Source of the DNA: Naegleria gruberi
Lineage: Eukaryota
Direction: 5' to 3' (one strand)
Assembly: GCA_000004985.1 (NCBI GenBank)
Contig: GG738885.1
DNA: 64,000 nt
Part shown: in pieces, positions 488 to 63,338 of the stretch
Layout: every line of letters begins with the position of its first letter
How positions within the stretch are numbered: position 1 is the stretch's first letter
The notes under the pieces: generated by a model
What the model was told of the DNA's origin: nothing
Database searches by the model: none
What the model saw: the letters and a program-made list of their open reading frames with translations, nothing else
Made by a program: the position numbers and the translations under genes

Positions 488-499
488 ATATTTAAGTCC

Positions 500-1415: not shown

Positions 1416-1419
1416 ATTA

Positions 1420-1901
1420 TAAACTTATTCAAATATCATTAAATTTTATATCATTCGATAGCTAATGATGAGTAGAACAACATGTTATATTTAGTTTATC
1501 AATTTATAAAATATTAACTTTGTAAATAATGTCAGATTAAAATTTGTAAAATGAAACCATAGGAAGAATGATAATTTCAAAATCATTTAATGAGGTTATA
1601 TAGCCAATATCATCATTAACAACATTTATAATCACTTTCATATCAAATACAAAAGTTCAAGTCTGTAGATATAAAAGTATCAAGTGAAAAGGGAAGATGT
1701 GAGGTAAAAGAGGTCAACTATAACTTTTGAGTTTCTCATCAAAACATATTGAAACCTGATATGAAAATGTTCCATTTGATGAGTAAACATCGAATATCAA
1801 ATTTATTTTAACTTTCATATTTAGAGATTTCTTCCCTCAATCACCCATGGTCAATTGTATGAAAAGGTGGAAATCTTGAAAAAGGACCACCTATTGAAAC
1901 T
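1420..1901. repeat. Telomere-associated subtelomeric element, copy B. It extends further than copy A and runs into a gap.
   Basis: Alignable base-for-base with 500-938. Its tail ..aaaaaggaccacctattgaaact recurs at 4052-4072. Confidence 0.7.
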
Positions 1902-3491: not shown

Positions 3492-4051
3492 GCTGAACAA
3501 TACTAGATTGAAAGTTTCCAAATTACCATATGAATCTGGCAGTGATGATGATTTTAGTGAAAATATTGAATTTCACTAAAATATTACTATTATCAGATTT
3601 ATTTCCACAAATATTACTATTATAATGATGATAAATAACAATGATGATGGTTGGAAGTTGTTCCGATGATGGTTTACCAACTTGAATTTTTCCCAAGTGA
3701 AAATTAAATTCCAAATTTATAATCACAATCCAATAATAAAAACTACTACCAGTAATACTATTAGGATGATGTTGAGATGATGATGTGAAAGTTTGGTGGA
3801 TTCATGGGGTGAAATCACTCTGAAAATCACCAAAGTGTTCCCAATGTGTGTTTGGGCTGAAATATTTTTTCTTAATGGTGGAAAATAATGGAACGTGTAT
3901 TTGTTAGGTGTTATTAATACATACAAGGCAACACCAAGAACTTTTGTCCATCAAATAAGCACCCTACTATTTTCGCCTAGACATTTTAGGCTATTTTTTT
4001 TGGCCTAAATATTTTTTGCCTGTTTTTCAGGCGAAAAAAGTAGCCTAGAAC

Positions 4052-4395
4052 AGGACCACCTATTGAAACTTTACCAAAATGATATACATGATATATAATG
4101 ATATAGAATTCAATTTCATGTCCAAATAATCAGAAATGGTACCATGGGAAGGTAAATGTTGATATATTATGGATGACTTTAAGGATTGATAGGTCAGATC
4201 ATATCTATCAAATACTTCACTTTAACCAATAAAATAAACATGAAAATGTTCCATTTGATGAGTAGAGATAGAATATCAAGTTTATTTTAACTTTTATATT
4301 CACGATTTCAACTCTAACATGCCATCTGATAAACTATGGACACGGATGAATTTCTGGAAAATGACCACTTTATGAAACATTACCATCATGTTCCA
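4052..4395. repeat. Partial third copy / variant of the subtelomeric element
   Basis: Shares caggaccacctattgaaact, catgaaaatgttccatttgatgagta..atatcaa.tttattttaactt and a gaccac.ttatgaaac variant with copies A/B. Confidence 0.5.
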
Positions 4396-4598
4396 CATCT
4401 CAAATAATGTATATAATTCAGTTTTTAGACGTTTTGGTGAACATTCCATCTTTCAGTAAGGTAAAGAGTGATTTATCAAGGTTGACTTTGGAGGATCAGG
4501 AGGAAATCTTGAATATAGAGAACCAAATCCTCAATCAACAAAATACATATCAATCGATTGGAAATCATTAGTACATCTCGAAAATATAATTTATTTTA

Positions 4599-5417
4599 NN
4601 NNNNNNNNNNNNNNNNNNNNNNNNNNNNNNNNNNNNNNNNNNNNNNNNNNNNNNNNNNNNNNNNNNNNNNNNNNNNNNNNNNNNNNNNNNNNNNNNNNNN
4701 NNNNNNNNNNNNNNNNNNNNNNNNNNNNNNNNNNNNNNNNNNNNNNNNNNNNNNNNNNNNNNNNNNNNNNNNNNNNNNNNNNNNNNNNNNNNNNNNNNNN
4801 NNNNNNNNNNNNNNNNNNNNNNNNNNNNNNNNNNNNNNNNNNNNNNNNNNNNNNNNNNNNNNNNNNNNNNNNNNNNNNNNNNNNNNNNNNNNNNNNNNNN
4901 NNNNNNNNNNNNNNNNNNNNNNNNNNNNNNNNNNNNNNNNNNNNNNNNNNNNNNNNNNNNNNNNNNNNNNNNNNNNNNNNNNNNNNNNNNNNNNNNNNNN
5001 NNNNNNNNNNNNNNNNNNNNNNNNNNNNNNNNNNNNNNNNNNNNNNNNNNNNNNNNNNNNNNNNNNNNNNNNNNNNNNNNNNNNNNNNNNNNNNNNNNNN
5101 NNNNNNNNNNNNNNNNNNNNNNNNNNNNNNNNNNNNNNNNNNNNNNNNNNNNNNNNNNNNNNNNNNNNNNNNNNNNNNNNNNNNNNNNNNNNNNNNNNNN
5201 NNNNNNNNNNNNNNNNNNNNNNNNNNNNNNNNNNNNNNNNNNNNNNNNNNNNNNNNNNNNNNNNNNNNNNNNNNNNNNNNNNNNNNNNNNNNNNNNNNNN
5301 NNNNNNNNNNNNNNNNNNNNNNNNNNNNNNNNNNNNNNNNNNNNNNNNNNNNNNNNNNNNNNNNNNNNNNNNNNNNNNNNNNNNNNNNNNNNNNNNNNNN
5401 NNNNNNNNNNNNNNNNN
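4599..5417. other. Assembly gap (819 N)
   Basis: Run of n. Confidence 0.99.
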
Positions 5418-6855
5418 AAGAATATATATCAATTGTTCTTCTCATGTCAGTAATCAGTGAAGGTGACACTTCATCAACCTTAGTTTTCACATCTCAATAT
5501 CTAGACTGTCAATTCGACTGAAACTTGAAATATTACCTATCTAGATGATATAATGATGACTCTCCATAGTAACATGCATGTGAAATTGAATGTTGACACT
5601 TTTCATCTTGTTATATTTATAGAGATGGTATCCAACAGAGTCAGTTCATAATATTAAATATTGAAACTCATTCTATATGACATGTTTGATGTATAGAACG
5701 GTTTTTTATTGAATGTAATCAATTTGAAATAATTTGATGAAATTGACACTGTCAGGTCACCATTACAAGACAAATAGACCATAGTTTACATTCCATCTCA
5801 GTCATTTCAAAGAGTTATTGATTAACTCCACCACCATTATGTTTCTCACACGCTCTAGTACAATTAATATTTCAAGAGTGAGTTCTGTGGAAGACTCTGT
5901 AAGAAATAATACCATATATATAGTAATATCAATAAACTGAATTGAAGAGTTAATTCTTCTCATTTTCAAATAGATTATTCAATATAGAACAAATCTAGAT
6001 AGTTTCCAGATCATAAAAGTCAAGCTACTATATATGGTCTTTGATTAAATTTAAAAATAGACTGCCGTTGATTACTGGAATATTAATTCAAAGCTTGATG
6101 ATCAAGCTATTGATTGAAAATCAAACCGATTATTGAATATTGATCATTGAATTGGTGAATAATCACTCTTGATAATGATACATATTGAAGATTGATGCAA
6201 ATCAACGTGATTCAATCTACAAAGGTTGGTAGTTGCACCACTACGTGGCGAAACTACCCATTCCACGATGAATCAACATGTGATTCACTTCCATGCAACT
6301 CAATTTGACCGTTATAATCAATAAATCAATGAAATGTTACTTTATTAGCAATACCTATTCAATCTAATGAGTAGATTCACGTCCCAAACATTTGACTTCT
6401 CAAAGTCCATATTTCAAAAGTTAGTACTGACCTGACCTTTATATATCTATCAATATAAGAAATGAAACCATCAAATTTACATCATTAATAGATGATAAGA
6501 AATATAATCAATGATATGAATCTTCACTAAGTAATCTCTTAAATAACCCAAATAAATCAACTCTGAATCCTAACCAAACCCTTATTCAACATTCATTAGA
6601 AGAAGATAGATTCCCAGTGATATATTCTCTCTCTTTACAATTTATTATTTCAATATCTGACAAATTAATTGAGATAGAAGGTATTTCATCAGCTCATATC
6701 AAAATAGCTGGAGTTGAACTACCTTGAAAAAGAAGTCTGGAAATTTGGAAGAGTTGAAAGAAAATCCAGAGAAAAACTTCACGCTCTTGTTCATTCAACT
6801 CCAAAGTCTTATATTCAACAAGCACCAACTTTTCTCTTCAACTTACAACAATTTA

Positions 6856-9800
6856 TTAAACCAACATCCTCACAGAAATACTACCTTGACTTTGTGTAGA
6901 AGTTGTATTGGCTGATTCCTGATATGAATTCTTTGATGGTAGAGAAATCATTTGAGCACGAACAGTCATTTCTACATCATCTGAAGAATTATCCTTCTCC
7001 TCCTGTGGTCTAGTTTTTCTTCTTCTTCCACAACAGCAACAAACACACGAACCCCTACGATAAATAACACCAGCAACTAGTGCAATGAAGAAGCAAGTAA
7101 TCGAAATAAAACAGGTTCCACCAATGACTGTTGAAATAATAATGATATCCTGAGTGGTGAGATAGGTCGTATTGGCAGCTTGGAATGTTCTAAGGGAAGT
7201 ATTTTTCACAACAATCACATTAGAAATGAATAAATCTGAGAATACACAATTACAATCAGTAGTTGAAGTAGCATTATTATAACCAGAAATTGAACATGAG
7301 GAGTAATCATTTCCTAGATCAGATTGAACTCTAACACATGAATAGGAAGAAATATCAAAGATGCCATAATCATCTTTAGAAACACGAATGTGGAATGTAA
7401 CATTTTGTCTCAAACCAACAGCTGTTGTGTTGGATTGAATAGAGAAACTTGTACTAACTGGAGAAACAACTACTATTGTGGAATTTTCATCCTGTTGATT
7501 AATTAACTTTTGTACAATAATTGGAATGTTTTCCTTAACCACAACTGAATAAGTTGCAGAACCAAATGGATTACTATCACTAACAAGAATATCTGGCATG
7601 GTGATATTAACAATGTTTGCTTGGTATTTTCCGTCTGTTGAGGATGGTGAGCCAATCACTGATTGAGAAAGATATTTAACATATTCCTTATCTGCCTTTA
7701 CAATGGAAACACCACTGTTTAATACTACAGCACTTGCACTTACTGGTTCTCCTTTTACAATTGTGAGAGCAAGTTTTTCAGTGAGAGCAGAAATTTCTTC
7801 GTCTCTTGCAAATTGATCTTTCAGGTTTGTAATATTTTCAGAGGCATAGACTAGATTTTCAACAACTGACATGAAAGTTTGAGTTGTCTGAGGTGGAACA
7901 CCAACATTAGTTCTGAAATTTTGTTCCACAATATTCTCAAGAGCATTCACTGATTTTTCAATGACAACTTGCCCAATATTTTGCTCATTCTTTAACATGG
8001 TGTGAATAGCATAGACAATCATTGATGAGGTTGACTCTGAGATTGTTTCTTCTGAAGTAGTTTCAGTTGCATTGGCCAATATATCTAATAAAGTTGTTTG
8101 AATATTAGTAATGGTAGTGGCACTCTTCTCAGATTCAGGTAAAGTTTGTAACATTTGATTAGTTGAAACTATGGTATTAATTGTTTGTGAAATACTTTGA
8201 CTCGAATCACCATCTTTAACAAAGGATGACATGATTGTATTGGTTTGGGTTGTAACTTGCTGAACAATCTGTGTAATTGAAGTCACCACAACACGCATCA
8301 CAGTAACATGGTAATACATAATTCTGAATTCACCTGTTTGAGTATCAGTTAATTCAACGAATATTTTGACAGTTGTTGAATTACTGGTAGAGGAACTAGA
8401 TGATGGCAGTTTCATTGTTTTTTCTTGAGTGAGAGGAATATAAATCATGATGCCTGTATCAACATCAATATAACCTTGTTTGATTTGAATGGTATTTTGT
8501 TGATTTTGACAATTTTGACATGTGAGTGTGAAATCTGTTTGCATGGAAATACCTTCAGAAGGTGAAACAGTACATGGACATTTTTGTGGTTGAGCTGCCT
8601 TTGTGAAACTGTTAGAACTTTCAGTGGAGGCAATTTCAATTTCAGAGCTTTCACTCTTTTGGACATAGGAAGCCTTAAATTGAATGGCATGTGCAACTCC
8701 TTCTTCTAATTGTTTGGAGTTTACAATAATTGCACTTTGTTCATTCTTATTTACAACTTGAATGTTTTCTGAAGTTGGTGAAATAGTAGTAATTGTGGTT
8801 AAAGAATTTGAAGCATAGGATTTGCTTGTGAAACTTTCTGAAACAACACCATTGTCAATCTTCCATTGAGACTTGACAGAAACTGAAGAATCAGTTAAAT
8901 CTTGGTTTGAATGTTGAACTTCAATAGAAATTCGACCATTGCTATTGATAATTGAGTTGGAAGTTGGTTCGACTGCAATGTAAGTTACCATTGGAGGTGA
9001 ATGAACAATATTCAAAGTAATTGAGCTTGATGTTTGTCTTTCACCTTTTGTAATTGTCAAAGTCAGCTTTGGTTTTGTAAGAGTTAGTGTTGAAAAGTCT
9101 TCTTGATTGAAAATTACAATAGAGGAGTGATTCTTTGAGTATAGAGACATCTTATCAAGAATTCCATCACCACAATACCCATTAGTTTCAGAGTTAATAC
9201 ACGTCCATTTCCAAACTTCCTTTTCGTCTACATTATTTTCAGGGTCTTCACTAGAGACTTGAATAACGTTTCTCATAGATGAAGTTTCTTTTAAAGAGAG
9301 AGAAAGTGAAAGATCTGGTTGATAGGTATTAATTATAGCAAAGTCACTAATTGTAGAAGTTTGATTGGCCACAATAATGGTTACCTTAAAGACATATTTC
9401 ACTTTTCCAGAAGCAAACTTTTCAATAATCAAATTTTGATAAGAATCTTTGTGATACCTGATGGATGGTCCTTCAATTTGCTCCCAATCAACATTGATTG
9501 CTTGATCTTTCAAATAGGTTGGCAAATAGGTAACCTTCTTAATAGAAACCAACTTATCAGTTGACTTGAAAGTATTTTGCTTTTCACCAGAAATTAGCAC
9601 AGAGGCCATTTCAACATCTTGAACTTGGAATGCAATTGTTTCAATAGAACTGTATTGGGCTGATATTTGACTCTTTACCTTCAAAATCAATGTATAAACT
9701 CCCTTAATTAATGAACCTTTTTGAATCGTAATGGTTGACAGCTTATTTGATCTAATATTGTTCAAAACTGTAGATGAAATTGAGTCACCTTGAATATCCC

Positions 9801-12800
9801 AAATATATTCCAATTCCTTCTTATCTCCAGAATAACTGTTCGAACCACTAAATATTATATCTTCATAATAACTAAATAATTTCTTTGAGGATGTAACTTG
9901 GGCAACTGGTGGCTTGACTGTTTGTGAAATGATAAAGTAAATTCTAATGTAAATTTCAATAATGGTGGTAGTAATCTTTGAGAATGCATATTTGTTAACT
10001 CTAATATTACTTGATGCTGTTAAACTAAAATCATAATCGAATTGAATCTTAAAATTACCATTTGCCTTATCAGTCCAGAAACATTTTGGCTCTGTACCAA
10101 GCAATTGCAAATCATCAGCGTGAATCAATTTGGAGCATGGAACTGTATTTGCCGTGTATGAAGGTGGAGCAAATAATTTGAGGGTAACTCCATCAAATAG
10201 TTCATTAATTTGAGCGTAAATTTCATTAATATAGGTAGAGTTGAATGATCCAAAGTATGTTGCACAATCACTTCCAAAGTAGCCATTCATACAATCATTA
10301 CAAGAAATTCCATTCCAGTAGCCATTATCTCTATCTTGATAGCAAGAGCATTTACCAGTAATATCACAATTACCATGACCATTACAAGTTGTTTGACCAT
10401 TACAATATATATCACAATTTGGCCCATAGTAATTAGTCTTACACTTTTCACAAATAAATCCATCAAAATTACCTGTACAAACACAAGTATTGTTGCTTCC
10501 ACAAGATCCACCATTCAAACAAGTTGAGACGGTACAAGATCTCTCAGTACATGTTGGACCAGTGTAGGCAGGATGACATGTATTACAATCAGATCCATAA
10601 TAATGACCATTTACATCATCATTAACACATGAACAAGTATTGACATCTACACATTGACCATGTCCTGAACAAACATTAGAGCTACTCTTTGAAATAGAAT
10701 TACAATCAAATTGATCACACTTTTCACCATAGTATCCTGAATTACATATGCATCCTGCTACGCCACTTGTAGAATTGATAAAACATTTACCATGATTTGA
10801 ACAAACTCTAAAATCAGTACTTGAGTAATAATCTTCAACGCCATTATAAATACCTCTACAGAGTAAGTTTTCACAAGAATCGCCTGTAATCTTGACTCCA
10901 GAAATTGACAAGCAGGAACACTTATCAATATCTAAACAAGTACCTCTTCCTGAACAAACCTTTGCATCTGTAGAAGAAATGCCATAACAAGTTTTATCTT
11001 GACAGGCTTGACCTCCGTATCCGAACTGACATGTGCATTTTCCATCACTGGAACATTTACCCTTTCCACTGCAAACAGTTGGATCATCTTGTCTCTTTCC
11101 ATTGCAACTTGTAATATTGCATTTATATCCAAAGAATCCATTTGAGCATTTACATAAATCATTTCCAATACATTCACCATTTCCTGAACAAACTACCTTA
11201 GTTTCCAAACTGGAAATACCAAAACAGTCGAAACTCAAAGTGGTTGTAATTTCTTGCACTGTGGTGATATTTCTAATGACAAGCAAATTATCAATAGCGA
11301 GCTCAGTAAATTGGCAATTACATTTCACAGTAGAAGTTTGCTCATCATAACTTGCAGTACATTGCTTACCATTCAACGACATATCAGATTCTACACCAAC
11401 ACAAGAATATGTGTAAGTAATATTGGTTTGTGGTGGTAATAATGGTAGTTCTTCTACTGACATTTCAACGGTAACATTCTTTGAACTCAATTCATCCAAA
11501 ATTTGACTTGTAACGGTTGTCACATTTTCAACAATGGAGAAGCTTGTACTCACAGAGGACACAACTTCAACAGTGGTGGTAGTGGTAAGTGAGGTTTTAA
11601 TATTTTGAACAATTGTTGTTACAGAGCTGGAAATTGTGGAATCGACAAGCATTGCAGTATTTTCCTCTATTGTCACAGAATAGGTCATTGATGTGAAGTG
11701 ATTATCTTTAGACATAGATTCAATAGCTGGAATGCTGATATTTACAGAAACATCATTTCCAGAAGTGGAAATTGTAGAGTTTGAAAAGTCTGTCAAGTAA
11801 ACCTTGTCAACTACGACAGTTAAGGTTGATGTCTGTAAAATAACAGGATCTGCACTCACAGGTTGTTCAATTACAATGGAGGTAGCAAGATTTTTTGTAA
11901 GAGATGAAACCTTCTCCAAGCTATTGAACTGGGTATTAGTGTTTGTAATATTTTCAATGTTTGTGTAGAGAGTTTCAATAACAGTCAGGAAAGTTTTAGT
12001 CGTTTCTGTTGTTATTTCTACTTGACTCTTTGTAGCTTGTTCAATTGTATTATCCAAAATGGAAATTGATTTATCAATCACGACTGGGTCAAGATTTACT
12101 TCATTCTTTACGATTGATTGAGCAGCATAGACAACCAATGATGTAGTAGTTGCTGTGATAGTTTCAGATATTGTTTCTGTTACAGTTTCCAAAGTATTTA
12201 AAAGATTAGTTTGAATATTTGTAACTAAAGTTGAGCGCTTAGCAGCTTCAGGTAAAGTTTGCAACATTTGATTGATTGAAACTATGGTATTAACAGTTTG
12301 TGAAATACCTTGACTAGAATCACCATCTCTATTGAAATTAGAAATAATTTCACTTGTTTGATTTCTGACTTGTTGAATAACATCAGTCATTGAAGTGGCT
12401 TCAACAGTAGCAACAGTAACATTAGTGTACATCATCCTAGATTCTCCTGTCTTTGTATCAGTTAATTCAATAAACAAGGTCATGGTTTCATTTCTTTGAG
12501 TAGTCAATTGAGAATCTGTAGAAACCAATGCAGGAATTCTCATCACATTGTCTTCATTGAGTGGAACTGGAATTTTAGTATTTGTTTCCTTATCAATATA
12601 ACCTTGTGTAATTTCAATACTGTTTTGTTCGTTTTGACAATTTTGACATGTGAGTGTGAAATCAGTTTGCATGGAAACACCATTCGAAGGTGAAACAAAA
12701 CATGGACATTTTTGTGGTTGAGTTGCCTTTGCGAAATTTGTTGAACTTTCAGTTGACGCAATTTCAATTACTTCTGGAGAGCCATCAATCAAGTTGGATT

Positions 12801-15800
12801 CATTCTTTTGGATATACGAAACTTTCAATTGAATGGAGTGGTCAACTAATTCTTCTAAACCTGCTGCATTAATGATAATTGCACTTTGCTCATTCTTATT
12901 CACAACTTGAATGCTGCTGGACGCTGAGGTCACGGTAGTGGTTGTGGTAATTTGAGAAGTTGTGGTCGATTGCAATGTTGAGGTTTCACTTTGTGAAATT
13001 CCAGTTTCGTCAACTTTCCATTCAGTTTTTACAGAAATGGTAGTATCTGTCAAATCTTGTGAAGATTTTTGAACTTCAATTGAAATCTTATCATTACTAT
13101 TGACAACTTTTGTTGCTACTGGCGAAATTCCAATAATACTAAGAATTGGAGGAGGATGAACAATATTCAAAGTAATGGAACATGAAGCCTTTCTTTCTCC
13201 TTTTGTAATTGTTAAAGTCAACTTTGGTTTTGTAAGAGTTAGAATTGAAAAGTCAGTATAGTTTGCATTTACTACAGCAGCACGATTCTTAGAGTAGAGA
13301 GCTAACTTATCTGTAATACCATCACCACAATAACCATCTGTTTCAGAATTAATACACGACCATTGCCATAACTCAGTTTCGTCTGTGTTGTTTTCTGGAT
13401 CTTGATAATTGACTTGAATTGTTGATGAATAATTAGTCACACTCTTCAATGAAAGATAAAGTGAGAGTTCAGGTTGTTCAGTGTTAATTATCACATAATC
13501 ACTTGATGATAAACTTGAATTTTGTGCAGCTGTAATAGTAATCTTGAAAACGAATTTCCACTTTCCCTTTATGAAACTGTCAATGATCAAATTATTGTAA
13601 GCGTCCTTCTTGAAAGAAAGGGATGGACCTTCAAGTTGTTCCCACTCAATGCTCACAGATGAACCACTTATATAATCTGGAATGGTTGTTGTCTTTTTCA
13701 CAAGTACCAACTTTTCAGTTGACTTGTAAGTTGTTTCCTTATTTCCTGATACAGACACTGAAGGAACGGCATATCCCTGAATTTGGAAACTGAAACTTTC
13801 TTTTGAACTCACTTCATTAGTAACCTTACTTCTCACAATTAATAAAACCTTATAAACTCCAGGAAGTAAATAACCCTTATCAATCTTAATAGATGGTAAC
13901 TTGTTTGCTTGAACCTTGTTTTTAACAATTGCTGGAATGTTATTTCCTTGAATATCCCAAGTATAATCCAATTCCTTCTTATCTCCAGAATAACTGTTAG
14001 TACCACTAAATGCCAAATCCTCGGTTGTGGAATAAACTTTCTTTGTGGATTTAACTTTGGCTACTGGAGGTATTACAGTCTTGGAAAGAATAAAGAAAAC
14101 GGATATGTAATATTCATTGAGAATGGTTGTAGTCGTTGAGAAAATGTAACTATTCAATCTGAAACTGTTACTGCCAGATGACAAATCAAAATCATTATCG
14201 AAATCAAATTGAATGGTAAAGATACCATTTGCCTTATCGGTCCAGAAACATTTAGGTTCTGATCCAAATAATGAAAAATCATCTGGATGAATAAGTTTCG
14301 AACATGTGACCGTATTTGCAGTATAAGTAGACGGAGCAATCAACTTGAATGTAATTGCGTCATAGTAATCAGAAACCTGAGCATAAATATTATCAACTAG
14401 AGTTGAATTGTAAGAACCAACATAGGTCAAACACTTAGTTCCATAATAATTATTTCTACAATAGGCGCATGAAGTTCCATTCCAGTAACCATTGGAGGTA
14501 TCTACATAACATGAACACTTGCCAGCACTTGTGCAACTCCCATGACTATTACAAAATGTTTTAGGATTACAATAAATATCACAATTAGATCCGTATTGAT
14601 AGGTTTTACAACTTTCACAAAGTAGTCCAGTAAAGTTTCCAACACAATTACAAATATTATTGACACATGTTCCTCCATGTAAACAGGTGGAATTGTTGCA
14701 ATATCTTGTCAAACAATTTGCACCAGAGTATGCAGGATGACATGAGCTACATGTTGATCCAGAATAGAAACCTTTAGTGCTATTACTATAACATGAACAA
14801 CTGTTAATTCCAGTGCAAGAACCATGTCCAGAACAAACATTTGTATCATTGTTGGCTAATCCATAACAATTGAATGCTCCACAGTATGTTCCGTAATATC
14901 CTGAATTACATTGACATTTACCTTCAAGAGTTGTTGCATTAATTACACACTTTCCGTGATTTGAACAAGCTCTATAATCAGTGGTAGCGAAATAATCTTC
15001 AACACCATTGTAAACTCCTCTGCAAAGTAAGTTTTCACATGTACTTCCTGTAATCTTGACATTGGTGTTATTAAATACATAACATTGACATTTGTCAACA
15101 TCAACACAAACACCTCTTCCTGAGCAAACATTTGGATCCAAAGATGTTTTACCAAAGCATGTTTTAACTTGACAATCTTTACCTCCATATCCATAAGAGC
15201 ATTGACAATGACCATCTTCAAAACATTTTCCTTTTCCACTGCAAACAGTTGGATTATCTTGTCTCTTTCCATTGCAACTTGTAACATTACATTTAGATCC
15301 AAAGAATCCATTTGAGCATTTACATAAATCATTTCCAATACATTCACCTTTTCCTGAACAAACAACTGTATCCTCAAGGCTTGAAATACCAAAACATGTG
15401 TATTCTTCCATTTCTACTACTTCTTCAATTATGGTTGTTACATTTCTAACAACTACAAGATTTGAAATTTGGAGTTGATTAAAAATACAATTACACTTGA
15501 CACTTGAAGTTGATTCATCATATTCTGCAGTACAATTGTGTGATTCGAGTGACATATTTCCTGTGTTTACACCCATACATGAATAAGAAGAAGAGAATTC
15601 AATGAAATCTCCAGAGTCAACCAACATTTCAATTGACACATTTTGAGAACTCATCAATTGGTTTGCTACTGAACTTTCTGATGTTTCCATGATTGAGAAT
15701 GATGTAATGACAGGAGAAGCAATTTGTAATGTGGTGGTGTTTGTAATATTTGTAAGAATTTGTTGCAAAATAGTTGAAGAATATTCCTCAACAACCATAG

Positions 15801-55880: not shown

Positions 55881-56129
55881 ATGCCACTTCGTGAAATCCT
55901 CAAAATTTTGATGGAAGATTTCATCCACTCGATGCTGATTTCCACCATTGTTGTGGACATCTTTGGTTCGAGTAACCAAAGCGAATCCTTTCAAATGCCA
56001 AACCATTACTCAATTCCAAATTGTGACATTTCCCATATTGAGAAATGTATTAATCCGTCCATTGTTATCGTTAATTTACATTTTCATCAGACGATCTTTG
56101 ATATCAAGTACTATAAACTTAAAAGTTAG
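55881..56129 (+). CDS. Small (82 aa) ORF, member of a two-copy local family
   Basis: Its protein-level paralog is at 63084..63338. The two share ST.I.D.F ... [IL]PN.DI..IEK...PS.VIVNLHFHQTIFDIKY, and nucleotide divergence is mostly synonymous-like. Confidence 0.35.
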   Translation: MPLREILKILMEDFIHSMLISTIVVDIFGSSNQSESFQMPNHYSIPNCDISHIEKCINPSIVIVNLHFHQTIFDIKYYKLKS

Positions 56130-56445
56130 GAAAGATTCTCAAAGAGTTTCGAAAACATTTGGTGAGTTTCCATTAGAGTTCAACAGTAAGGTAAATGATC
56201 AATTGCCATATATGAAGGAGAGACTTTGGAATTATAAAAACTCCAGGCTGTTGTAATTTTTTCTTCCAGATTGCAAATCTTATCTTTGGTAATGTTCTTG
56301 TTTCGTCCAATCAACAAGAAAATAACCCTAAGAGTGGATGTAGTTGGTGGTGTAGCCGGTAGCCGGTTACAGCCGGATGGTAGTGCGGGTAGTCGGAAGC
56401 TGTTGAATACACCTTCAAAGCCAAAAATTAATAAAAGTTCTATTT

Positions 56446-59013
56446 TTAAAATTTAACTTTATGGAAATTCATGAAAAACGAGTATTGGTTGAACATTTCT
56501 TTGCCAGCAATATTATGAATCAAACATTTACCAATTATTTGATTTAGTGCAACATAGCCTGTTGTTACATGAATGTTTGAATCAATTAATCTATATCCAA
56601 TAATTGGATGAACCGAAGAGAGACACTTTTTGATGTTGGTGAAATATACTCTTTGCTCTTTAACCTCAACAAATTGACCAACAAGTAAGGAACCATCCTT
56701 TGCCTTAAATAAAATAAATTCTTTGTTTTGTACAATTGGAATCCATTTCTTGTTTTCAGATTGATTTCTTACCCAAGGATAATTGATGTTAATTTGTTTT
56801 TGAAGTTTTTCAAAATTCGCTCCTCGTTGTTCTAAATTTTTGTGATTGGAAGAGTCATTAAATTGTTTGAAAACTTTGTGTTTCAATTCAAAAAGCAATG
56901 CCCAGAAGAACCTGGCATTTCCCCACTTCAAACAATCTTCAAAAATATGAGAATTCCAATGAAAATTAGGATTTGTAAAATTACCATTACCATATAGGGA
57001 AATGACTTGTTTCCTGAAATTGAAATGTTTCAATTTTGCAATTTCAATATTTGAAGGTGAAACCAAATCTTGAATCAAAGAAAGTACGTATTCTACGTGA
57101 TTTGACCAACATATTATATGTTTCTTCTTCAAACTGAATGAAACATCACAGTGATTCTTATTATTAATAAGAAAATCATACATAATTGGGCAACTAAAAA
57201 CCACGAATTCCAAAAAATGATCTGCTGAACAATCATTGTAATCTTTTGCAATCATTTTCAAAGGTTTACCATGATTGTTTGTATACTTGTCCATAACAGA
57301 CTGAAAATCACTTAAAATGTTGGTGTAATTGAAATATTTGAAAAATTTTTTAAGGTGTCTCCTTAAATCACCTTGAATAGAACCATGCATTAATTCAACA
57401 GTTGAATTTTCAAAAATATCACAATCCTTAATTTGTAAAAACGGACACTTCATTTGAGTATTGTTACTTTGTCGAACTTTTTCTTTTACCTGTTTGGATT
57501 TTTTGGACTTGGAATCAATCTGCATATCTTTGATTTGAATATCAGCGACTGTAATAAACTTGTAGCCATTACATGAGGTACCAATTGATAATTTTTGTTG
57601 CATTTCAATTGCTTCAGTAACAGTTCTTAAAGGATAGACTAAAGGTGTTGAAATGTCATTAGGACATTTACAATAATCTCCTTTTGGGCATTTACATTTA
57701 GAACATGTATAGCTTTCAAGAAATAATGATAGCCATCTTTGTACAGAATCCCAAATCCAAGGACCTATTAGAATTCGAATCTTTTCAATTGAATCAGTGT
57801 AAGAGTTATAAACATCAATTGATTTTCCATTAATTTCATTCAACTCTTCAACTAGTTTTGTTGCTAATTTGAATTGGGAAATATTTGTTTTTGAATTTCC
57901 TAGTAATGAAATTGATTCCATATTCGAAGTAAGAAAGCTTCGATTAAAATTCAATAAGGTGAAATATAATCCTGCTGTTTTGTCTGTACCTGTTCTATGT
58001 TTTCTAAATTCATCAATATAATACATAATGACAATTGGTGTTTCGTCTGATGAACATTTCTTTTTCAATTCTTGAAATCCTTTTGATGCGTATGGTTCAT
58101 AATCGAATAATGGTTCTTTTGTTAAATCCTCTGGCTTATTACCATTATGTATCTTTTTTGCAATAAAAGGATCTGCATATAAATATTTGATACAATTTAC
58201 AACACCATAGTATACATATTGGTCCTGTTCAGTATCATTTTCATCAATTATTGGTTGTTGAGTTTTGAAATATTTACATCTGGTTTGAATTTGATCGTAT
58301 GAAAGACATTCTTGACCACATAATTTCAGTATTTCAGTTGTATAATTGTATTGTTCTTTTGTAAACTGTTTGGATTTCAACATCATGAAACTATGCCATT
58401 CTAATTCATTAGCGAATGGAGCAAACTTATTTGAAGGATCAGTTACTTTGTATGGGTTGTTGACAGAAAAATTTTCTAAAACTAAATCTTCAATATCTTC
58501 ATAAGGATTGACATCTTTCAAATTGATATCAGTATCATTTTGAATTTGTGAGATTTTCCACTTAATATCTGTTAGCTCTGTATTTTTATCAATTGGTGTC
58601 CATGTTGATTCAAAACCTCCACACTCCAATGTATGATGTTTAAAATTGATATGATCAACATATTCCTCCATTGTGGTGTAATGTTTATCACAACACACTT
58701 TTGGAAACTTGATGGAATGTTCTTTTGTAATATGTTTCAACAACGTTTCAGATTTGACACAACTATAATCACATAAACAACATCCAAGTTTTTCCTTAGT
58801 AAAATTTTTACACTCAGAGTTTTCACAGTTACATTTAATTTGAATCTTGAATTTTGCACTTGAAATTGGTTGGTAAAATACTGTGTGTAAAGATTTCTTG
58901 CAAGAATCACAGCGTCTTTCAAAATAGATACCTTGTTCCTTGTTATTTTGTAAAGACATTTTTTTTCGTCTAAAAACTGGCTTTCGACTGAAAATTCGAA
59001 TCAAAAAAAACAC
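56446..59013 (-). CDS. Transposase, CACTA/En-Spm Tnp2-like (Transposase_21/KDZ-type), 855 aa
   Basis: N-terminal Cys-rich region with C.C...C (CLCDYSC) resembles the transposase-associated domain. Central VELMHGSIQGDLRRHL resembles the D.MH.EKN block of Tnp2. The downstream AKDYNDCSADHFLEFVVFSCP resembles the ..SHDCHV.. block. The ORF is intronless. Confidence 0.5.
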   Translation of the reverse strand: MFFLIRIFSRKPVFRRKKMSLQNNKEQGIYFERRCDSCKKSLHTVFYQPISSAKFKIQIKCNCENSECKNFTKEKLGCCLCDYSCVKSETLLKHITKEHSIKFPKVCCDKHYTTMEEYVDHINFKHHTLECGGFESTWTPIDKNTELTDIKWKISQIQNDTDINLKDVNPYEDIEDLVLENFSVNNPYKVTDPSNKFAPFANELEWHSFMMLKSKQFTKEQYNYTTEILKLCGQECLSYDQIQTRCKYFKTQQPIIDENDTEQDQYVYYGVVNCIKYLYADPFIAKKIHNGNKPEDLTKEPLFDYEPYASKGFQELKKKCSSDETPIVIMYYIDEFRKHRTGTDKTAGLYFTLLNFNRSFLTSNMESISLLGNSKTNISQFKLATKLVEELNEINGKSIDVYNSYTDSIEKIRILIGPWIWDSVQRWLSLFLESYTCSKCKCPKGDYCKCPNDISTPLVYPLRTVTEAIEMQQKLSIGTSCNGYKFITVADIQIKDMQIDSKSKKSKQVKEKVRQSNNTQMKCPFLQIKDCDIFENSTVELMHGSIQGDLRRHLKKFFKYFNYTNILSDFQSVMDKYTNNHGKPLKMIAKDYNDCSADHFLEFVVFSCPIMYDFLINNKNHCDVSFSLKKKHIICWSNHVEYVLSLIQDLVSPSNIEIAKLKHFNFRKQVISLYGNGNFTNPNFHWNSHIFEDCLKWGNARFFWALLFELKHKVFKQFNDSSNHKNLEQRGANFEKLQKQININYPWVRNQSENKKWIPIVQNKEFILFKAKDGSLLVGQFVEVKEQRVYFTNIKKCLSSVHPIIGYRLIDSNIHVTTGYVALNQIIGKCLIHNIAGKEMFNQYSFFMNFHKVKF

Positions 59014-59087
59014 AATAAATGCCAGGTAAGTACTTCCACATCAACCTTGTAACTTTTCCATCAACTGCCAATTTTACATCATTTCAG

Positions 59088-59599
59088 CATCATCACCATC
59101 AGTAAAAGTAAGTAGTTTAGCACCATTTATTCAACATAAATTATTCTAATAACAAAGAAGAAGACTAAATTAACCATAACATGTTTACCAGAAGCCACAT
59201 ATGAAAAGTTGGCTGACTGTTATCCCAAGGCTGCAGTGGGATGGAAGGATACTCAACGAGCGTAAGTAAGCAAATTGTTAGTTATTTATTTGATTTTATA
59301 TAGACTAAAAAGAGAAGTTATGCAATGTATTCGAATTTACTGTAAGCGAAAAGGGATTCCCCAAAATGATACTGCCATGAGTTCATGTAAAGATTGTCTG
59401 CAATTAACTTTTGGTGAAACATTGTTCAGAAAACATGTTAATGGATTGTCAACGGATACATATAAATACGTGCAAAGTATGTAAGTGAAGTTTATCCTTA
59501 AATTATTTATTAATTATTTTCCAACAATTAATTAGAGCTATTGTTATGTCAGTAAGATATTCAGCAATCTGTGGAGTTCTTTTAAAAGAAAGAGTCTAA
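59088..59599 (+). CDS. Small spliced gene of unknown function (at least 3 introns). Its 5' end is unresolved.
   Basis: Exons at ~59088-59107, 59192-59261, 59304-59480 and 59536-59599 are joined by GTAAGT..AG introns of 84, 42 and 55 nt. The encoded protein reads ..KATYEKLADCYPKAAVGWKDTQRALKREVMQCIRIYCKRKGIPQNDTAMSSCKDCLQLTFGETLFRKHVNGLSTDTYKYVQSIAIVMSV.. A putative first exon (ATG 59019 plus a 62-nt intron) does not fit the phase. Confidence 0.4.
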
Positions 59600-60938
59600 T
59601 AGAATTAAAGAAAAAAGAGAAGCCAAAAAGAAAGAAGAATTCCAATGTAGAAGTTTCTAATATAGAAGGGGTTCCATCCTCAATTCAAGCAACAGCTATT
59701 CAACCTTCTACCTCTTCACCAACAAGAGAACATGTCAGAGCCAACAATGGTCAATTCTCTTCATTGCAGAGCTATGTTGCAGAAGATGAACAAGTTGTTT
59801 TTTTAACACTTGTTAAAGATTGGATCAAAAAACCTGACACAAGAGCAACACAACCTTCAGCAGACGCAATTAATTTGCTTGATATGGAATCAGATGGTGC
59901 AGATCTTTATTCAGATAATGGTCAATCAGACTCAGAAGAAGCACAACAATTGTAAATAAATAAATCAGTTTTACTCAAATTATGAAAATTGTAATGGTCA
60001 ACAGAGTAAATTAAGGGAAACTTTCAGTCAAATACCAACACACTAAAAGCCGCATAGAAACTGAATGTTCACCGAATAGTCACTGAATGTTTACCATATA
60101 ATAACTGAATGGTTACTGAATATTTATTGAATAGTTACCCACCAATTTCATTCCTTTACCCAACAATCAACCGACTACCAACCAACTAACACTGAACTAA
60201 AACGGTCAGGAGAGTATGGGCTGATATTCGATTAATTTCTGGAAAATCGTTCAGTTGTTTTCGGAAACAAGTTGGGGAAAATTAGGGTTGTAGTCGGTGA
60301 TAGTAGGGTTGTGGATGGGGTTTAGACGGAACATAGCCAACTAAAAACCAACTATAACACTGTCTATTACCCAAGTACTCCACTCTTAGGACAAGGATAC
60401 GCCACAACAATGCATCCTTGAATAATAATAGTAGCATGCTCATTATTGGAATAACAGGTGTGGATTCGGAATAGTGGATTTTGCTTGAATTCTTCAGAGG
60501 TAAATTACAAGAAATTCTCTGGGGATGAATCGTTATAATTTAACCAATTCGTTGAATTGCTGATCTTAACATTAAATAATCTGTATGGAATGGATCCACT
60601 AATCTCTTGTTGCATCACCATTTGAATCTCCATAGGAAATGGTTAAAATCTCTTCATCATTAAGAGAGTCGTTATATTTTTTTTAAGGCGCGAAATTCTT
60701 TTTCGCAAGTTGTATAATTCTGGAATGTTTCTAGTTGATGTACACAAATCATTGTACTATCCATGGAAGGAGACCTTGGAAATGACGAGTATAAGATAAG
60801 CTGTAGTGACACAATCAGGATGTGCTCAATACTCTCCATAGAATAACTAACAGCATGGTTTCATGAAATGGAATGTGGACTACACTTGCAATATGCTGGT
60901 CATCAACTGCATCACGTCTTGTGTTGGGGTGCTTCGCT

Positions 60939-61543: not shown

Positions 61544-61790
61544 ACCATTTGTTTTTAAGGTGTTGATGAATCACGTTTCGGATTTCTTTGTAATGAATCA
61601 CGTTCAGAATTTTGGAATGGATCACGTTTCGAATCTAATTGAAAGTAACATGACAACAAGCTTGTTTCAAACAAGAAAACAAAAAATGGGATCAACAACA
61701 TCTACCCTCTATTACTATGCAGAAAACGATGATTTCGATCGTATTCAAAAGAAATCTCTAACAGTTATTATTATGATGCATCTGGTATTT

Positions 61791-61840
61791 NNNNNNNNNN
61801 NNNNNNNNNNNNNNNNNNNNNNNNNNNNNNNNNNNNNNNN
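61791..61840. other. Assembly gap (50 N)
   Basis: Run of n. Confidence 0.99.
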
Positions 61841-63083
61841 GGAATTAGGTATACGTGGAAAGAAGACATGTTAAAGGAATTCTTGAAAAAGGATGAAACT
61901 AGTTGATGTTTCTTCTTGCACTGATAGGATTCTTTGCTTTGGTGATTTCTTTATTGATTTCTGCAGAATCAAATGCTCCAAATCCAGAAACAAAAGTTGA
62001 CAATGAAATCCATAAGAATAACACAAGCCAGATTACAATCACGTTTGCCACTAAAGATATAGATTGGATAAACTGTCAATCATGAAACAAAGACTGAAAC
62101 CAGCCCTTCAAATAATAGCCCTTCCACAGATTTGAATCTTCCAAGTAATGGTAAAGAAGAATTAAATCAACAAGACAATTGCCCTGAAATCTCCAATGAA
62201 AGTAATCCTCCTTTAGATAATGGCCCTTCCACCAATTTGAACCAAATAAGCACTAACCAAGTTTCGAATCAACAAGAAATAATCGGTAATAGAGAAGGGA
62301 GAGAGATGGCCATAAAATTATTATAGAACAAATCTCTTGTCCAAATAAAAATTATGACATGGTGCTCAAGTTTTGAAAAATTGTCACTTTTACAATGTGA
62401 AATTAAAATCTCATAAAATTGAGCAAGTGACATGGCTCCACGAAATGAAGAGTATCATTATATCACCAAGAGAACATTTCAGGGAATTTTTTACAAATTT
62501 AAATAATTTGTAAGAAAGGTAAGATTCGAATTTGTTGAACAAACAAATAAATAATTAAATTATTATTGTTCGTGCCATGAATTGCACTTTCGCATACATC
62601 ACAGTGTTGGAACCATTCGTAAATGGCTCGTAATGGACATGTAGATACCTTTTTTGTTATCTGAAACATTGTTTTCGTATGGATAGCAAATATCTCATAG
62701 TTCATTTGCCATTTATATGCTAAGCGAGCTTTTTGGATAGTGCGAGGACTCTGGTGATTGCAAGGGAGATTTCAAGGATACAAACTTTCGAATAATACTA
62801 TTGGAAAGGATCATAATTAGAATGTTTTTTTGTTTCAATCAAAAATGATTAACTGACAAAGATTTGATATTAACATTCGAGGTTGACAACAAGAATGCAA
62901 TTCATTCAATATTTGATATAATTGTTAATAGTATTCGTTTGGGAGATTGTCGAATATTAATATTCGAAACTCCATGTTTAAGCAAGGTCCAAAAATGCTT
63001 GGTATTGAAATTAAATACAAACAACTTTACCCCATTTGTCCTATGCGAATCCTTCAATCAATTGAAAAAAAAGAAACCACATC

Positions 63084-63338
63084 ATGCTTCTCCACAATCT
63101 ATTCGAAACTCTTATAACTAATCTTCTACTCTCCATTTACATGTCAACCATAATAGACTTGGATTTTATAGAAGAAGCCCACGAGTATACAATATCAAAT
63201 TTTTCAAATATTGGTAATTACTCTTTACCTAATGGTGACATTTTCCAAATTGAGAAATTAAGTGATCCTTCCATGGTTATTGTAAACTTGCATTTCCATC
63301 AGACGATATTTGATATCAAATATTTTCAAATGCTGTGA
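63084..63338 (+). CDS. Small (84 aa) ORF, paralog of 55881..56129
   Basis: Shared C-terminal block VIVNLHFHQTIFDIKY; start ATG at 63084. Confidence 0.35.
   Translation: MLLHNLFETLITNLLLSIYMSTIIDLDFIEEAHEYTISNFSNIGNYSLPNGDIFQIEKLSDPSMVIVNLHFHQTIFDIKYFQML

What the first reader, a model, noticed from the sequence alone, without database searches (positions are those of the whole stretch)
56325..60391. Candidate ~4.1-kb CACTA/Tnp2-like DNA transposon with two genes, 12-bp imperfect TIRs and GC-rich subterminal repeats
The 855-aa ORF has the hallmarks of En/Spm Tnp2-type (Transposase_21/KDZ-like) transposases: an N-terminal C.C..C zinc module, an LMH block and an HDCH-like block. Divergently on the other strand lies a small multi-intron gene, as in two-gene CACTA elements (TnpD plus TnpA). 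The candidate ends are CCCTAAGAGTGG at 56325 and its inverse TCCTAAGAGTGG at 60391, reading inward. Both are followed within 100 bp by unusually GC-rich short direct-repeat-like motifs (gtagccgg / gtagtcgg / gtagtgcgg). Those motifs could be transposase-binding subterminal repeats. If real, this is a potentially autonomous element near the telomere. The TIR match is short, so a chance match remains possible.
Basis: partly seen in the sequence, partly recalled or inferred. Interest (0 to 1): 0.5.

Follow-up and report, generated by a model that had tools for sequence, protein, structure and literature searches.

The report
Intact two-gene DNA transposon in Naegleria
This stretch of a Naegleria gruberi chromosome end is a complete, apparently intact 4.1-kb cut-and-paste DNA transposon of the CACTA/RAG1-related (CMC) group; it is a divergent but ordinary member of a known class of mobile elements.

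Summary

- **Element:** window 56327-60390 (4,064 bp) is a class II transposon. It has perfect 12-bp terminal inverted repeats (CCTAAGAGTGGA) and is flanked by a 2-bp target-site duplication (AC/AC).
- **Subterminal repeats:** GTAGYCGG motifs occur only at its two ends within the 64 kb.
- **Transposase:** the 837-aa ORF has no direct Pfam hit. Its family profile matches Transposase_21-positive proteins (hhalign 99.9%, E 3.5e-37). Its AlphaFold model matches only RAG1/RAGL/Transib. It keeps D316, D404, E691, C419-x2-C422 and H667-x3-H671.
- **Relatives:**
  - A related 4.39-kb element in N. lovaniensis has at least 6 near-identical copies. All end in CCTAGGAGCAGA and all have 2-bp duplications.
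  - A closer N. lovaniensis relic ends in CCTAGGAGTGG.
  - A Willaertia copy ends in CCTAAGAGAGT / CTTAGGAGTGG with AT/AT flanks.
  - A sequencing-run contig ends in CTTAGCAGATA with TT/TT flanks.
- **Second gene:** a divergently transcribed small spliced gene sits beside the transposase in all six element lineages examined. Its function is unknown.
- **Corrections:** the termini are not CACTA, the duplication is 2 bp rather than 3 bp, and the element is not KDZ-like.
- **Novelty:** "CMC-EnSpm" repeats were already reported for N. lovaniensis, so this is a new member of a known kind. Only one copy is seen in N. gruberi, and current activity is unproven.

The parts
56325..56326 (.). Left copy of the 2-bp target-site duplication (AC)
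   Evidence: Sequence. The same dinucleotide follows the right end. Related elements show 2-bp duplications in 6/6 N. lovaniensis copies, in W. magna (AT/AT) and in L011 (TT/TT).
56327..56338 (+). Left terminal inverted repeat CCTAAGAGTGGA (on the 3' side of the transposase gene)
   Evidence: It is homologous to the terminus CCTAGGAGTGG of the N. lovaniensis relic L003 and to CCTAGGAGCAGA of the multicopy family.
56339..56396 (+). Left subterminal GC-rich repeats. Six GTAGYYGG-like units (GTAGTTGG, GTAGCCGG x2, CAGCCGG, GTAGTGCGG, GTAGTCGG), all in one orientation. Candidate protein-binding sites.
   Evidence: GTAGYCGG is found only at the two element ends in 64 kb (5 observed against 0.12 expected). 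The region is 58% GC.
56446..58959 (-). Transposase gene: 837 aa from the ATG at 58959, stop at 56446-56448. It has N-terminal Cys/His zinc-finger-like modules (aa ~25-110), an RNase-H-like DDE core (D316, D404, E691) with C419-x2-C422 and H667-x3-H671, and a C-terminal beta domain (aa ~748-823).
58960..59018 (.). 59-bp intergenic spacer between the two divergent start codons. Presumed to hold the start of a bidirectional promoter and the 5' UTRs (inferred).
   Evidence: Coordinates. The same head-to-head arrangement is seen in relatives.
59019..59955 (+). Second gene with 5 exons: 59019-59025, 59088-59107, 59158-59261, 59304-59480, and 59553 (or 59565)-59955. It encodes a 236- or 232-aa protein with a K/R-rich stretch and an acidic C-terminus. 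Function unknown.
   Evidence: One search gives the splice model, with four GTAAGT donors and the frame kept throughout. Searches show it annotated as NAEGRDRAFT_79192. It has a homologue in W. magna (BLASTP E 3e-12). No Pfam hit.
60054..60150 (+). Right subterminal array of 11/22-nt periodic ACTGAATxxTTAC-like repeats
   Evidence: family D1: 6 copies at spacings of 22, 22, 11, 11, 11.
60171..60354 (.). Right subterminal GTAGYYGG motifs: 60171-78(-), 60182-88(-), 60290-97(+), 60337-43(-), 60348-54(-)
   Evidence: TAGTTGG occurs 1+3 times at the ends and 0 times inside the element.
60379..60390 (-). Right terminal inverted repeat (TCCACTCTTAGG on the + strand, which is CCTAAGAGTGGA on the - strand)
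60391..60392 (.). Right copy of the 2-bp target-site duplication (AC)

Best explanation
Window 56327-60390 is a complete 4,064-bp cut-and-paste (class II) DNA transposon. It belongs to the CMC/CMCT clade (EnSpm/CACTA-Mirage-Chapaev, with Plavaka and Transib/RAG1 as outer relatives) and is inserted in the Naegleria gruberi genome.

**Shown.**
- It has 12-bp perfect terminal inverted repeats, a flanking 2-bp duplication, and subterminal short repeats shared by both ends.
- It carries an 837-aa transposase gene and a divergently transcribed 5-exon gene.
- The transposase is homologous to Tnp2-type transposases and has a RAG1/Transib-like predicted fold.
- Related elements with homologous ends are multicopy and make 2-bp duplications.

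**Inferred.**
- The transposase binds the ends, probably through its N-terminal zinc-finger region and perhaps with the small protein on the GTAGYCGG repeats.
- It cuts at the CCTAAG termini using D316, D404 and E691 in an RNase-H-like active site. That site would be braced by a Cys2His2 zinc site (C419, C422, H667, H671), as in RAG1.
- It reinserts with a 2-bp staggered cut.

The intact ORFs, catalytic residues, repeats and duplication suggest the copy is competent or only recently immobilised. Whether it still moves is unknown.
For: **Organism.** N. gruberi.

**Ends.**

**Homology.**
- 70 relatives were found by exhaustive HMMER.
- Distant ones pass the Pfam gathering thresholds: P0054, P0064, P0065 and P0066 for Transposase_21, and P0030 for Plavaka.
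- The family profile matches the Transposase_21 group at Prob 99.94%, E 3.5e-37, covering window residues 247-719.

**Motifs.** D316, D404, C419/C422, H667/H671 and E691 were verified. [quoted passage not shown]

**Structure.**
- AlphaFold2 gave pLDDT 79.4 and pTM 0.73.
- D316 lies on a strand, D404 just after a strand, and E691 on a helix.
- The top 19 PDB matches are all RAG1, BbRAGL or HzTransib (E 7e-11 to 4e-5).

**Mobility of the family.**
- Six N. lovaniensis copies are 99.6-99.9% identical and sit in six different gene neighbourhoods. Each is bounded by CCTAGGAGCAGA...TCTGCTCCTAGG and a 2-bp duplication (AT, AA, TT, TT, AA, TT). All have an intact 870-aa ORF.
- L011 has TIR CTTAGCAGATA with TT/TT flanks.
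- W. magna has CCTAAGAGAGT / CTTAGGAGTGG with AT/AT flanks.
- The N. lovaniensis relic L003 ends in CCTAGGAGTGG.
- The flanks are not syntenic between species.

**Two-gene layout.** Conserved in the window, L002, the P0006 contig, the N. lovaniensis family, L010 and L011.
Against: - Only one copy is visible. There is none elsewhere in the window, and no other protein above about 50% identity turned up in the two database searches.
- The full N. gruberi genome could not be searched, so there is no empty site or second copy to fix the boundaries directly.
- The terminal repeat alone is within chance, and a matching 2-bp flank has roughly a 1/16 chance.
- There is no direct Pfam hit for the ORF or for any Naegleria relative.
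- One relative (L002) has clear 18-nt terminal repeats but no matching 2-bp flanks.
- The small proteins of the two sub-lineages are not demonstrably homologous (hhalign E 0.15).
- There are no expression or excision data.
Confidence: 0.88

Rival explanations
1. It is a transposon by descent but no longer mobile. It would be either a fixed, immobilised single-copy relic or a gene pair on its way to domestication for a host function.
For: - No second copy was found in the window or among the proteins searched.
- The same two genes are present in the reference proteome on one 530-kb contig with only about 0.8% amino-acid differences. That fits a stable locus.
- The closest relatives in N. lovaniensis (L003, frameshifted) and W. 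magna (L001, internally deleted) are decayed. This lineage therefore seems to be dying out rather than expanding.
Against: - The terminal repeats are perfect 12/12 and the 2-bp flank is intact.
- Both ORFs are intact and all seven catalytic or zinc-site residues are retained.
- Domesticated transposases normally lose their repeats.
- There is no synteny with the other species' copies, so the insertion is lineage-specific rather than ancient and conserved.
- A sister family is clearly recently active in the same genus.
Confidence: 0.35
2. There is no element. Two ordinary host genes happen to be flanked by a chance 12-nt inverted repeat.
For: - Perfect 11-nt inverted repeats between 600-nt flanks occur in 14-26% of controls.
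- The ORF has no direct Pfam transposase hit.
Against: - The repeat sequence is homologous to the ends of related elements in three other genomes, including a family with at least six copies and target-site duplications.
- GTAGYCGG is confined to both ends.
- The ORF is a DDE transposase by profile and by fold.
Confidence: 0.02
3. It is a KDZ (Kyakuja-Dileera-Zisupton) type element, as the reader's "KDZ-like" label allows.
For: None found.
Against: - No KDZ Pfam family hit appeared in the ORF or in 51 relatives.
- Relatives hit Transposase_21, DUF4218 and Plavaka instead.
- Zisupton makes 8-bp duplications, and Plavaka/EnSpm are unrelated to KDZ (PMC12730594).
- The duplication here is 2 bp.
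Confidence: 0.02

Closest known systems
EnSpm/CACTA elements (Pfam Transposase_21 + DUF4218 transposases; maize En/Spm TnpD/TnpA)
   Same: - The DDE core is homologous across the region spanning D1, D2, C(2)C, the D-x-M-H block, H(3)H and the FE(R/K) block.
- It has short terminal inverted repeats plus clusters of short subterminal repeats at both ends.
- It has a second element-encoded protein.
   Different: - Termini are CCTAAG...CTTAGG rather than CACTA...TAGTG.
- Neither the Transposase_21 nor the Transpos_assoc Pfam model detects the protein.
- The N-terminus carries C2H2-like fingers.
- The second gene is on the opposite strand, spliced, and shows no similarity to TnpA.
- In maize, both products come from one transcript (my knowledge).
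Plavaka (fungal CMCT lineage, Pfam PF18759)
   Same: - One relative (P0030, E 2e-13 to the window ORF) passes the Plavaka gathering threshold.
- PlavakaA also makes 2-bp duplications (PMC12730594).
   Different: - Plavaka termini are TGT..ACA or CATCA..TGATG (PMC12730594).
- The window ORF and all Naegleria relatives give no Plavaka hit.
- Plavaka is fungal.
Transib / RAG1 / ProtoRAG (BbRAGL)
   Same: - These are the best and only significant structural matches: about 630 aligned columns and TM up to 0.60 normalised to the target.
- The order of elements is the same: D, D, C(2)C, H(3-4)H, E.
- The E lies 20 residues after the second His, the same spacing as RAG1 H942 to E962 (RAG1 numbering from my memory).
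   Different: - No detectable sequence similarity exists: the profile against PDB sequences gives no hit.
- Transib makes 5-bp duplications (my knowledge).
- The ProtoRAG partner gene is a RAG2-like kelch propeller, whereas here it is an unrelated small protein.
4.39-kb multicopy element of Naegleria lovaniensis (defined here); probably the "CMC-EnSpm" repeats listed in the N. lovaniensis genome paper (PMC6125883, Table 3: 38 pieces, 69.8 kb)
   Same: - It has the same layout: a transposase of about 870 aa with N-terminal Cys/His modules, a divergent small spliced gene, CCTAGG-type termini and a 2-bp duplication.
- It occurs in the same genus.
   Different: - Amino-acid identity is only about 26% (E 1e-28 through P0011).
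- The small proteins are not demonstrably homologous.
- That family has at least 6 near-identical copies, whereas the window element is single-copy.
- Equating it with the published CMC-EnSpm entry is my inference from matching total length, not a test.

Membership tests
CMC / CMCT clade of DDE transposons (EnSpm-Mirage-Chapaev, plus Plavaka, Transib and others) | DDE catalytic triad in an RNase-H-like fold | tested here: met
   D316, D404 and E691 align with the conserved D, D and E of Transposase_21-positive proteins. In the AlphaFold2 model D316 is on strand 307-319, D404 follows strand 390-403, and E691 is on helix 688-702.
CMC / CMCT clade of DDE transposons (EnSpm-Mirage-Chapaev, plus Plavaka, Transib and others) | [quoted passage not shown] | tested here: met
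   C419-S-K-C422 and H667-W-N-S-H671. Both are conserved in the family alignment.
CMC / CMCT clade of DDE transposons (EnSpm-Mirage-Chapaev, plus Plavaka, Transib and others) | Sequence homology to recognised members | tested here: met
   hhalign of the family profile against proteins that pass the Transposase_21 gathering score: Prob 99.94%, E 3.5e-37, 410 columns.
CMC / CMCT clade of DDE transposons (EnSpm-Mirage-Chapaev, plus Plavaka, Transib and others) | Target-site duplication of 2-5 bp | tested here: met
   AC/AC in the window. 2 bp in 6/6 N. lovaniensis copies, in L011 and in W. magna. Not seen in L002.
CMC / CMCT clade of DDE transposons (EnSpm-Mirage-Chapaev, plus Plavaka, Transib and others) | 5'-CA...TG-3' termini (stated as "in most cases", so not strictly defining) | tested here: not met
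   Termini are 5'-CCTAAG...CTTAGG-3'. Relatives have CCTAGG or CTTAG.
Canonical CACTA / En-Spm | CACTA terminal pentanucleotide | tested here: not met
   The element starts with CCTAAGAGTGGA.
Canonical CACTA / En-Spm | 3-bp target-site duplication | tested here: not met
   The three flanking bases differ (AAC against ACA). Only 2 bp match. The relatives' flanks match over 2 bp; the 3-bp case was checked and ruled out for copy L004 (AAT against ATG).
Canonical CACTA / En-Spm | Direct match to Pfam Transposase_21 (PF02992) or Transpos_assoc (PF13963) above threshold | tested here: not met
   hmmscan at E<=1 returns only a noise zf_ZIC hit. There is none in the Naegleria relatives either.
Canonical CACTA / En-Spm | TnpA-like second protein | tested here: not met
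   The small protein has no Pfam hit at E<=1. It is encoded on the opposite strand.
Canonical CACTA / En-Spm | Clusters of short subterminal repeats at both ends | tested here: met
   GTAGYCGG and TAGTTGG are confined to both ends.
KDZ (Kyakuja-Dileera-Zisupton) | KDZ transposase domain; 8-bp duplication for Zisupton | tested here: not met
   No KDZ family was found among the Pfam hits of the ORF or of 51 relatives. The duplication is 2 bp.
Plavaka | Pfam PF18759 match; termini TGT..ACA or CATCA..TGATG | tested here: not met
   There is no hit on the window ORF. Only the relative P0030 matches. The termini differ.
Transib / RAG1 | RAG1-like core fold | tested here: met
   Foldseek against PDB gives RAG1, BbRAGL and HzTransib as the top 19 hits.
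Transib / RAG1 | Detectable sequence similarity; 5-bp duplication | tested here: not met
   The profile against PDB sequences gives no hit at E<=10. The duplication is 2 bp.
Autonomous (currently active) element | Multiple near-identical copies, insertion polymorphism or demonstrated excision | not testable with these tools
   The N. gruberi genome could not be searched, and reference loci were not retrievable. Only the intactness of ORFs, repeats and duplication is shown.

The most novel reading that the evidence does not exclude
The heterolobosean elements and their environmental relatives could form a distinct, so far unnamed deep lineage of the CMCT clade. This group comprises the window element, the N. 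lovaniensis family, the Willaertia copy and the contigs L002, L010 and L011.

The lineage would be defined by three features:
- 5'-CYTARG termini;
- 2-bp duplications;
- an obligatory, divergently transcribed small accessory gene.

Being invisible to the Pfam EnSpm and Plavaka models yet RAG1-like in fold, it could be a useful outgroup for working out how two-component RAG-like transposition systems arose. Its accessory protein could be a new kind of transposition cofactor that reads the subterminal repeats.
Probability: 0.3. Interest if true: 0.45.

Novelty: new member of a known kind. Interest (0 to 1): 0.3.

Why it matters
**Practical value.**
- It corrects the annotation of three N. gruberi gene models. 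Two "predicted proteins" (P0004 and P0001) are halves of one transposase, and NAEGRDRAFT_79192 is the element's second gene.
- It gives exact boundaries, duplication length and catalytic residues for a transposon family that standard domain models miss in Naegleria and Willaertia.

**Scientific value.**
- It adds a protist branch with a RAG1/Transib-like fold, and a conserved partner gene of unknown function, to the CMC group.
- An intact single-copy element, together with a recently active sister family in N. lovaniensis, could serve as raw material for a genetic tool in Naegleria.

None of this overturns current understanding.

Tried and rejected
- **Direct Pfam scans.** I scanned the ORF, its N- and C-terminal parts, the small protein, the Naegleria relatives and the neighbouring ORFs. 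No informative hits resulted.
- **PDB sequence searches.** phmmer and profile searches gave only zinc-finger noise or nothing.
- **Word-index protein searches.** These found only the self hits, and the profile version also failed to return the paralogues.
- **N. gruberi reference loci.** Retrieval of P0071, P0002 and P0001 failed because the proteins are not on record. Within-species copies and empty sites therefore could not be examined.
- **Second copy in the window.** Neither blastn nor tblastn found another copy or a miniature derivative.
- **Empty-site test.** I tried the paralogous flank at 63217-63322. The similarity stops about 200 bp before the insertion point, so it is uninformative.
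- **Synteny.** The window flanks are not syntenic with the N. lovaniensis or W. magna loci.
- **Loss of the catalytic Glu.** I first suspected the HGS block (family consensus H-V-E) meant a lost catalytic Glu. I rejected this for three reasons: that position is variable across the family, Transposase_21 proteins have DPMHNLF there, and the CMCT rule places the catalytic E after H(3)H, at E691, which is intact.
- **Small-protein homology.** Homology between the two small-protein sub-lineages was not significant (BLASTP, hhalign).
- **Small-protein structure.** The prediction was unusable (pLDDT 37).
- **AlphaFold-database fold search.** The library was unavailable.
- **L010 inverted repeat.** The 13-nt inverted repeat there does not resemble the family termini and was treated as chance.

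Full report
**Source and setting**

The 837-aa ORF is 99% identical to a "predicted protein" of Naegleria gruberi. The window starts with (CCCAAA)n telomere-type arrays at 1-480 and again at about 989-1366. The finding lies about 55 kb from that end. Background G+C is 33%.

**Checking the observation**

They are the only matches in the window.

Read more closely, the inverted repeat is a perfect 12-mer, CCTAAGAGTGGA, at 56327-56338 and 60379-60390.

A repeat of this size is not evidence by itself. A perfect 11-nt inverted repeat between two 600-nt flanks turns up in 14% of shuffles and in 26% of equally spaced real-sequence controls from the same window.

The GC-rich motifs are a different matter. 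GTAGYCGG occurs five times in 64 kb against 0.12 expected. All five lie in the two ends: three at 56352-56396 and two at 60171-60297. The related TAGTTGG occurs once at the left end, three times at the right end, and never inside the element. The right end also carries an 11/22-nt periodic array at 60054-60150.

The long ORF runs 56446-59013 on the minus strand, with the first ATG at 58959.

Fifty-nine bases upstream, on the other strand, a gene starts at 59019. It has four GTAAGT...AG introns of 42-84 nt that each restore the frame. It ends at 59955 and encodes 232 or 236 aa, depending on which of two in-frame acceptors is used. The reference genome annotates a shorter model of it, NAEGRDRAFT_79192.

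**What the large protein is**

Nothing but a sub-threshold zinc-finger hit appears at E<=1. The word-index search found only the protein itself.

An exhaustive HMMER scan of 1.84 billion representatives found 70 relatives. They include:
- two N. gruberi paralogues at 35% identity;
- N. lovaniensis and Willaertia magna proteins at 44-46% identity;
- full-length proteins of about 830-930 aa on short environmental contigs.

The closer relatives are also invisible to Pfam. Among the more distant ones, four pass the gathering score of Transposase_21, several hit DUF4218, and one passes Plavaka.

A profile of the family, with the window ORF as first sequence, aligns with the Transposase_21-positive proteins over 410 columns. 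This covers window residues 247-719, at probability 99.94% and E 3.5e-37.

The conserved blocks are collinear:

| Window block | Transposase_21 group consensus (x = no majority residue) |
|---|---|
| YYID316EF | LNxDWFQP |
| IWD404SVQR | DIPAxRK |
| C419SKC422 | GCSKC |
| VELMH | VDPMH |
| NFH667WNSH671 | NMHLHGH |
| LFE691LKH | SFERxN |

Sources.

This is the signature given for the EnSpm-Mirage-Chapaev-Transib-Plavaka assemblage: C(2)C and H(3-4)H between the second Asp and the final Glu (PMC12730594).

I first suspected that the family's H-x-E position, which is Ser in the window ORF, meant a lost catalytic residue. That position is variable in the family, and Transposase_21 proteins lack a Glu there. 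The real third acidic residue is E691, which is intact.

An AlphaFold2 model built on the family alignment is confident (pLDDT 79.4, pTM 0.73). It places D316 on a strand, D404 at the end of a strand and E691 on a helix.

Against the PDB, its 19 significant matches are all RAG1, amphioxus RAG1-like or Transib transposase (E 7e-11 to 4e-5). By sequence the family profile finds nothing in the PDB.

The protein is therefore a divergent CMC-type DDE transposase. It has an N-terminal Cys/His finger region and a small C-terminal beta domain.

**Are the proposed ends real transposon ends?**

No second copy exists in the window. N. gruberi reference loci could not be fetched. I therefore used relatives.

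*N. lovaniensis multicopy family.* The protein P0079 is encoded identically on six contigs.
- The six loci share a 4,392-bp block at 99.6-99.9% identity and nothing outside it. The neighbouring genes differ each time.
- Every copy begins CCTAGGAGCAGA and ends TCTGCTCCTAGG.
- Each is flanked by a duplicated dinucleotide: AT, AA, TT, TT, AA, TT.
- All six keep an intact 870-aa ORF.
- This is a recently mobile family with 2-bp target-site duplications and termini that begin like those of the window element.

*N. lovaniensis relic L003.* This is the closer relative (44% identity, frameshifted). About 185 bp past the end of its transposase it terminates in CCTAGGAGTGG, followed inward by a GC-rich stretch. 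That matches the window's terminus at 10 of 11 positions.

*Willaertia magna.* A decayed copy is bounded by CCTAAGAGAGT and, on the other strand, CTTAGGAGTGG, with AT on both sides.

*Contig L011.* This sequencing-run contig carries an element from position 3 to 4552 with CTTAGCAGATA repeats and TT/TT flanks.

*Contig L002.* This metagenome contig has 18-nt repeats beginning CCTAGGAAGG and CCATGG-type subterminal repeats. Its flanking dinucleotides do not match, and it is the one exception.

The window's AC/AC flank fits the 2-bp rule. Window flanks share no similarity with the flanks in the other two species, so these are independent insertions. Each element has its own short motif shared by both ends and absent inside.

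**The second gene**

A small gene or set of small ORFs lies head-to-head with the transposase gene in every relative for which upstream DNA or gene calls were available:
- L002;
- the P0006 contig;
- the N. lovaniensis multicopy family;
- L010;
- L011.

Spliced models give 176-190 aa proteins that start with Met-Pro. They contain a basic stretch and an acidic C-terminal part.

The window protein is clearly homologous to a W. magna gene (E 3e-12). The N. lovaniensis and L002 proteins are homologous to each other (E 8e-10). The two pairs are not significantly similar to one another.

None of the small proteins has a Pfam match. A single-sequence structure prediction was useless. Position and architecture are therefore conserved, while common descent across the whole family, and function, are not established. 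A role in recognising the subterminal repeats, by analogy with maize TnpA, is my inference only.

**Mechanism**

*Shown:*
- the element's anatomy;
- the transposase's homology and fold;
- the retained catalytic and zinc-site residues;
- the 2-bp duplications made by relatives.

*Inferred:*
- the transposase, perhaps with the small protein, binds the repeats;
- it cleaves at the CCTAAG termini through the D316/D404/E691 site;
- it integrates with a 2-bp stagger.

Whether this copy still moves is open. It is intact in every respect I could test, but it is the only copy seen, and its nearest relatives in two other species are decayed.

**Comparison with known families and novelty**

It works like, and is homologous to, CMC-clade transposons.
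- It is not a canonical CACTA element: it has the wrong termini, a 2-bp duplication, no direct Transposase_21 or Transpos_assoc hit, and no TnpA-like protein.
- It is not Plavaka by termini or by direct profile.
- It is not Transib by sequence or duplication length.
- It is not KDZ.

The N. lovaniensis genome paper already lists "CMC-EnSpm" repeats (38 pieces, 69.8 kb; PMC6125883). That total would fit about 16 copies of 4.4 kb. The class has therefore been recognised automatically in this genus. I could not check Repbase.

I rate the element a new member of a known kind. There is a modest chance that the heterolobosean and environmental group deserves recognition as a separate CMCT lineage.

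Noticed in passing
window 1-1900: There are two (CCCAAA)n telomere-type arrays, at 1-480 and about 989-1366. Each is followed by about 400 bp of subtelomeric sequence, and the two stretches are 91.5% identical (538-938 against 1438-1836). N-gaps separate them. This is either a tandem subtelomeric duplication or a scaffolding artefact. TTTGGG appears to be the telomere unit of this organism.
   Followed up: partly
window 56005-56110 and 63217-63322: An 81%-identical 106-bp segment encodes the C-terminal part of two short ORFs (...VIVNLHFHQTIFDIKY...). One lies just left of the element and the other 7 kb to the right. This is a small repeated gene family or a segmental duplication. The similarity stops about 200 bp before the insertion site.
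   Followed up: partly
L001 (Willaertia magna JBEGDK010000091.1) 2495-12836: The probable W. magna copy spans 10.3 kb between its two terminal repeats. Between the small gene (3438-4174) and the deleted transposase remnant (10001-12550) it holds a Kelch-propeller gene, an RCC1-like gene and a myosin-head fragment. An aldo-keto-reductase fragment lies within the remnant's internal deletion (11785-12141). This could be gene capture by the element or later insertions. Each terminal repeat alone is within chance.
   Followed up: partly
window 56446-58959 (-), residues ~748-823 of the ORF: The C-terminal all-beta domain of the transposase model gives weak Sm/Lsm-like small-barrel matches (E 0.01-0.1). 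This domain is conserved in the family alignment. Its role is unknown.
   Followed up: no
window 56446-59955: The reference annotation splits the uninterrupted 837-aa ORF into two models: P0004 (177 aa, N-terminal 113 aa plus unrelated tail) and P0001 (645 aa, residues 193-837). The window differs from P0001 at five residues (D286N, S304P, M593I, K721R, R770K) and from P0087 at one residue, apart from P0087's extra SYCYVS segment, which comes from a different splice model. The window therefore represents another haplotype, strain or assembly.
   Followed up: partly
L004-L009 (N. lovaniensis), locus coordinates 5617-8229: The annotated 742-aa protein of the multicopy element omits 128 in-frame N-terminal residues that carry the Cys/His modules. 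The full ORF is 870 aa and is intact in all six copies. The element's small gene is annotated in only two of the six loci.
   Followed up: yes
N. gruberi proteins P0071 (XP_002668659, 842 aa) and P0002 (XP_002680973, 485 aa): A second lineage of the same transposase family, 35% identical to the window ORF, is present in N. gruberi on at least two contigs, with copies more than 90% identical to each other. Their loci could not be retrieved.
   Followed up: partly
window ~61560-61874: An N-gap interrupts an ORF (a run of X in the translation) just right of the element. The flanking annotation there is unreliable.
   Followed up: no
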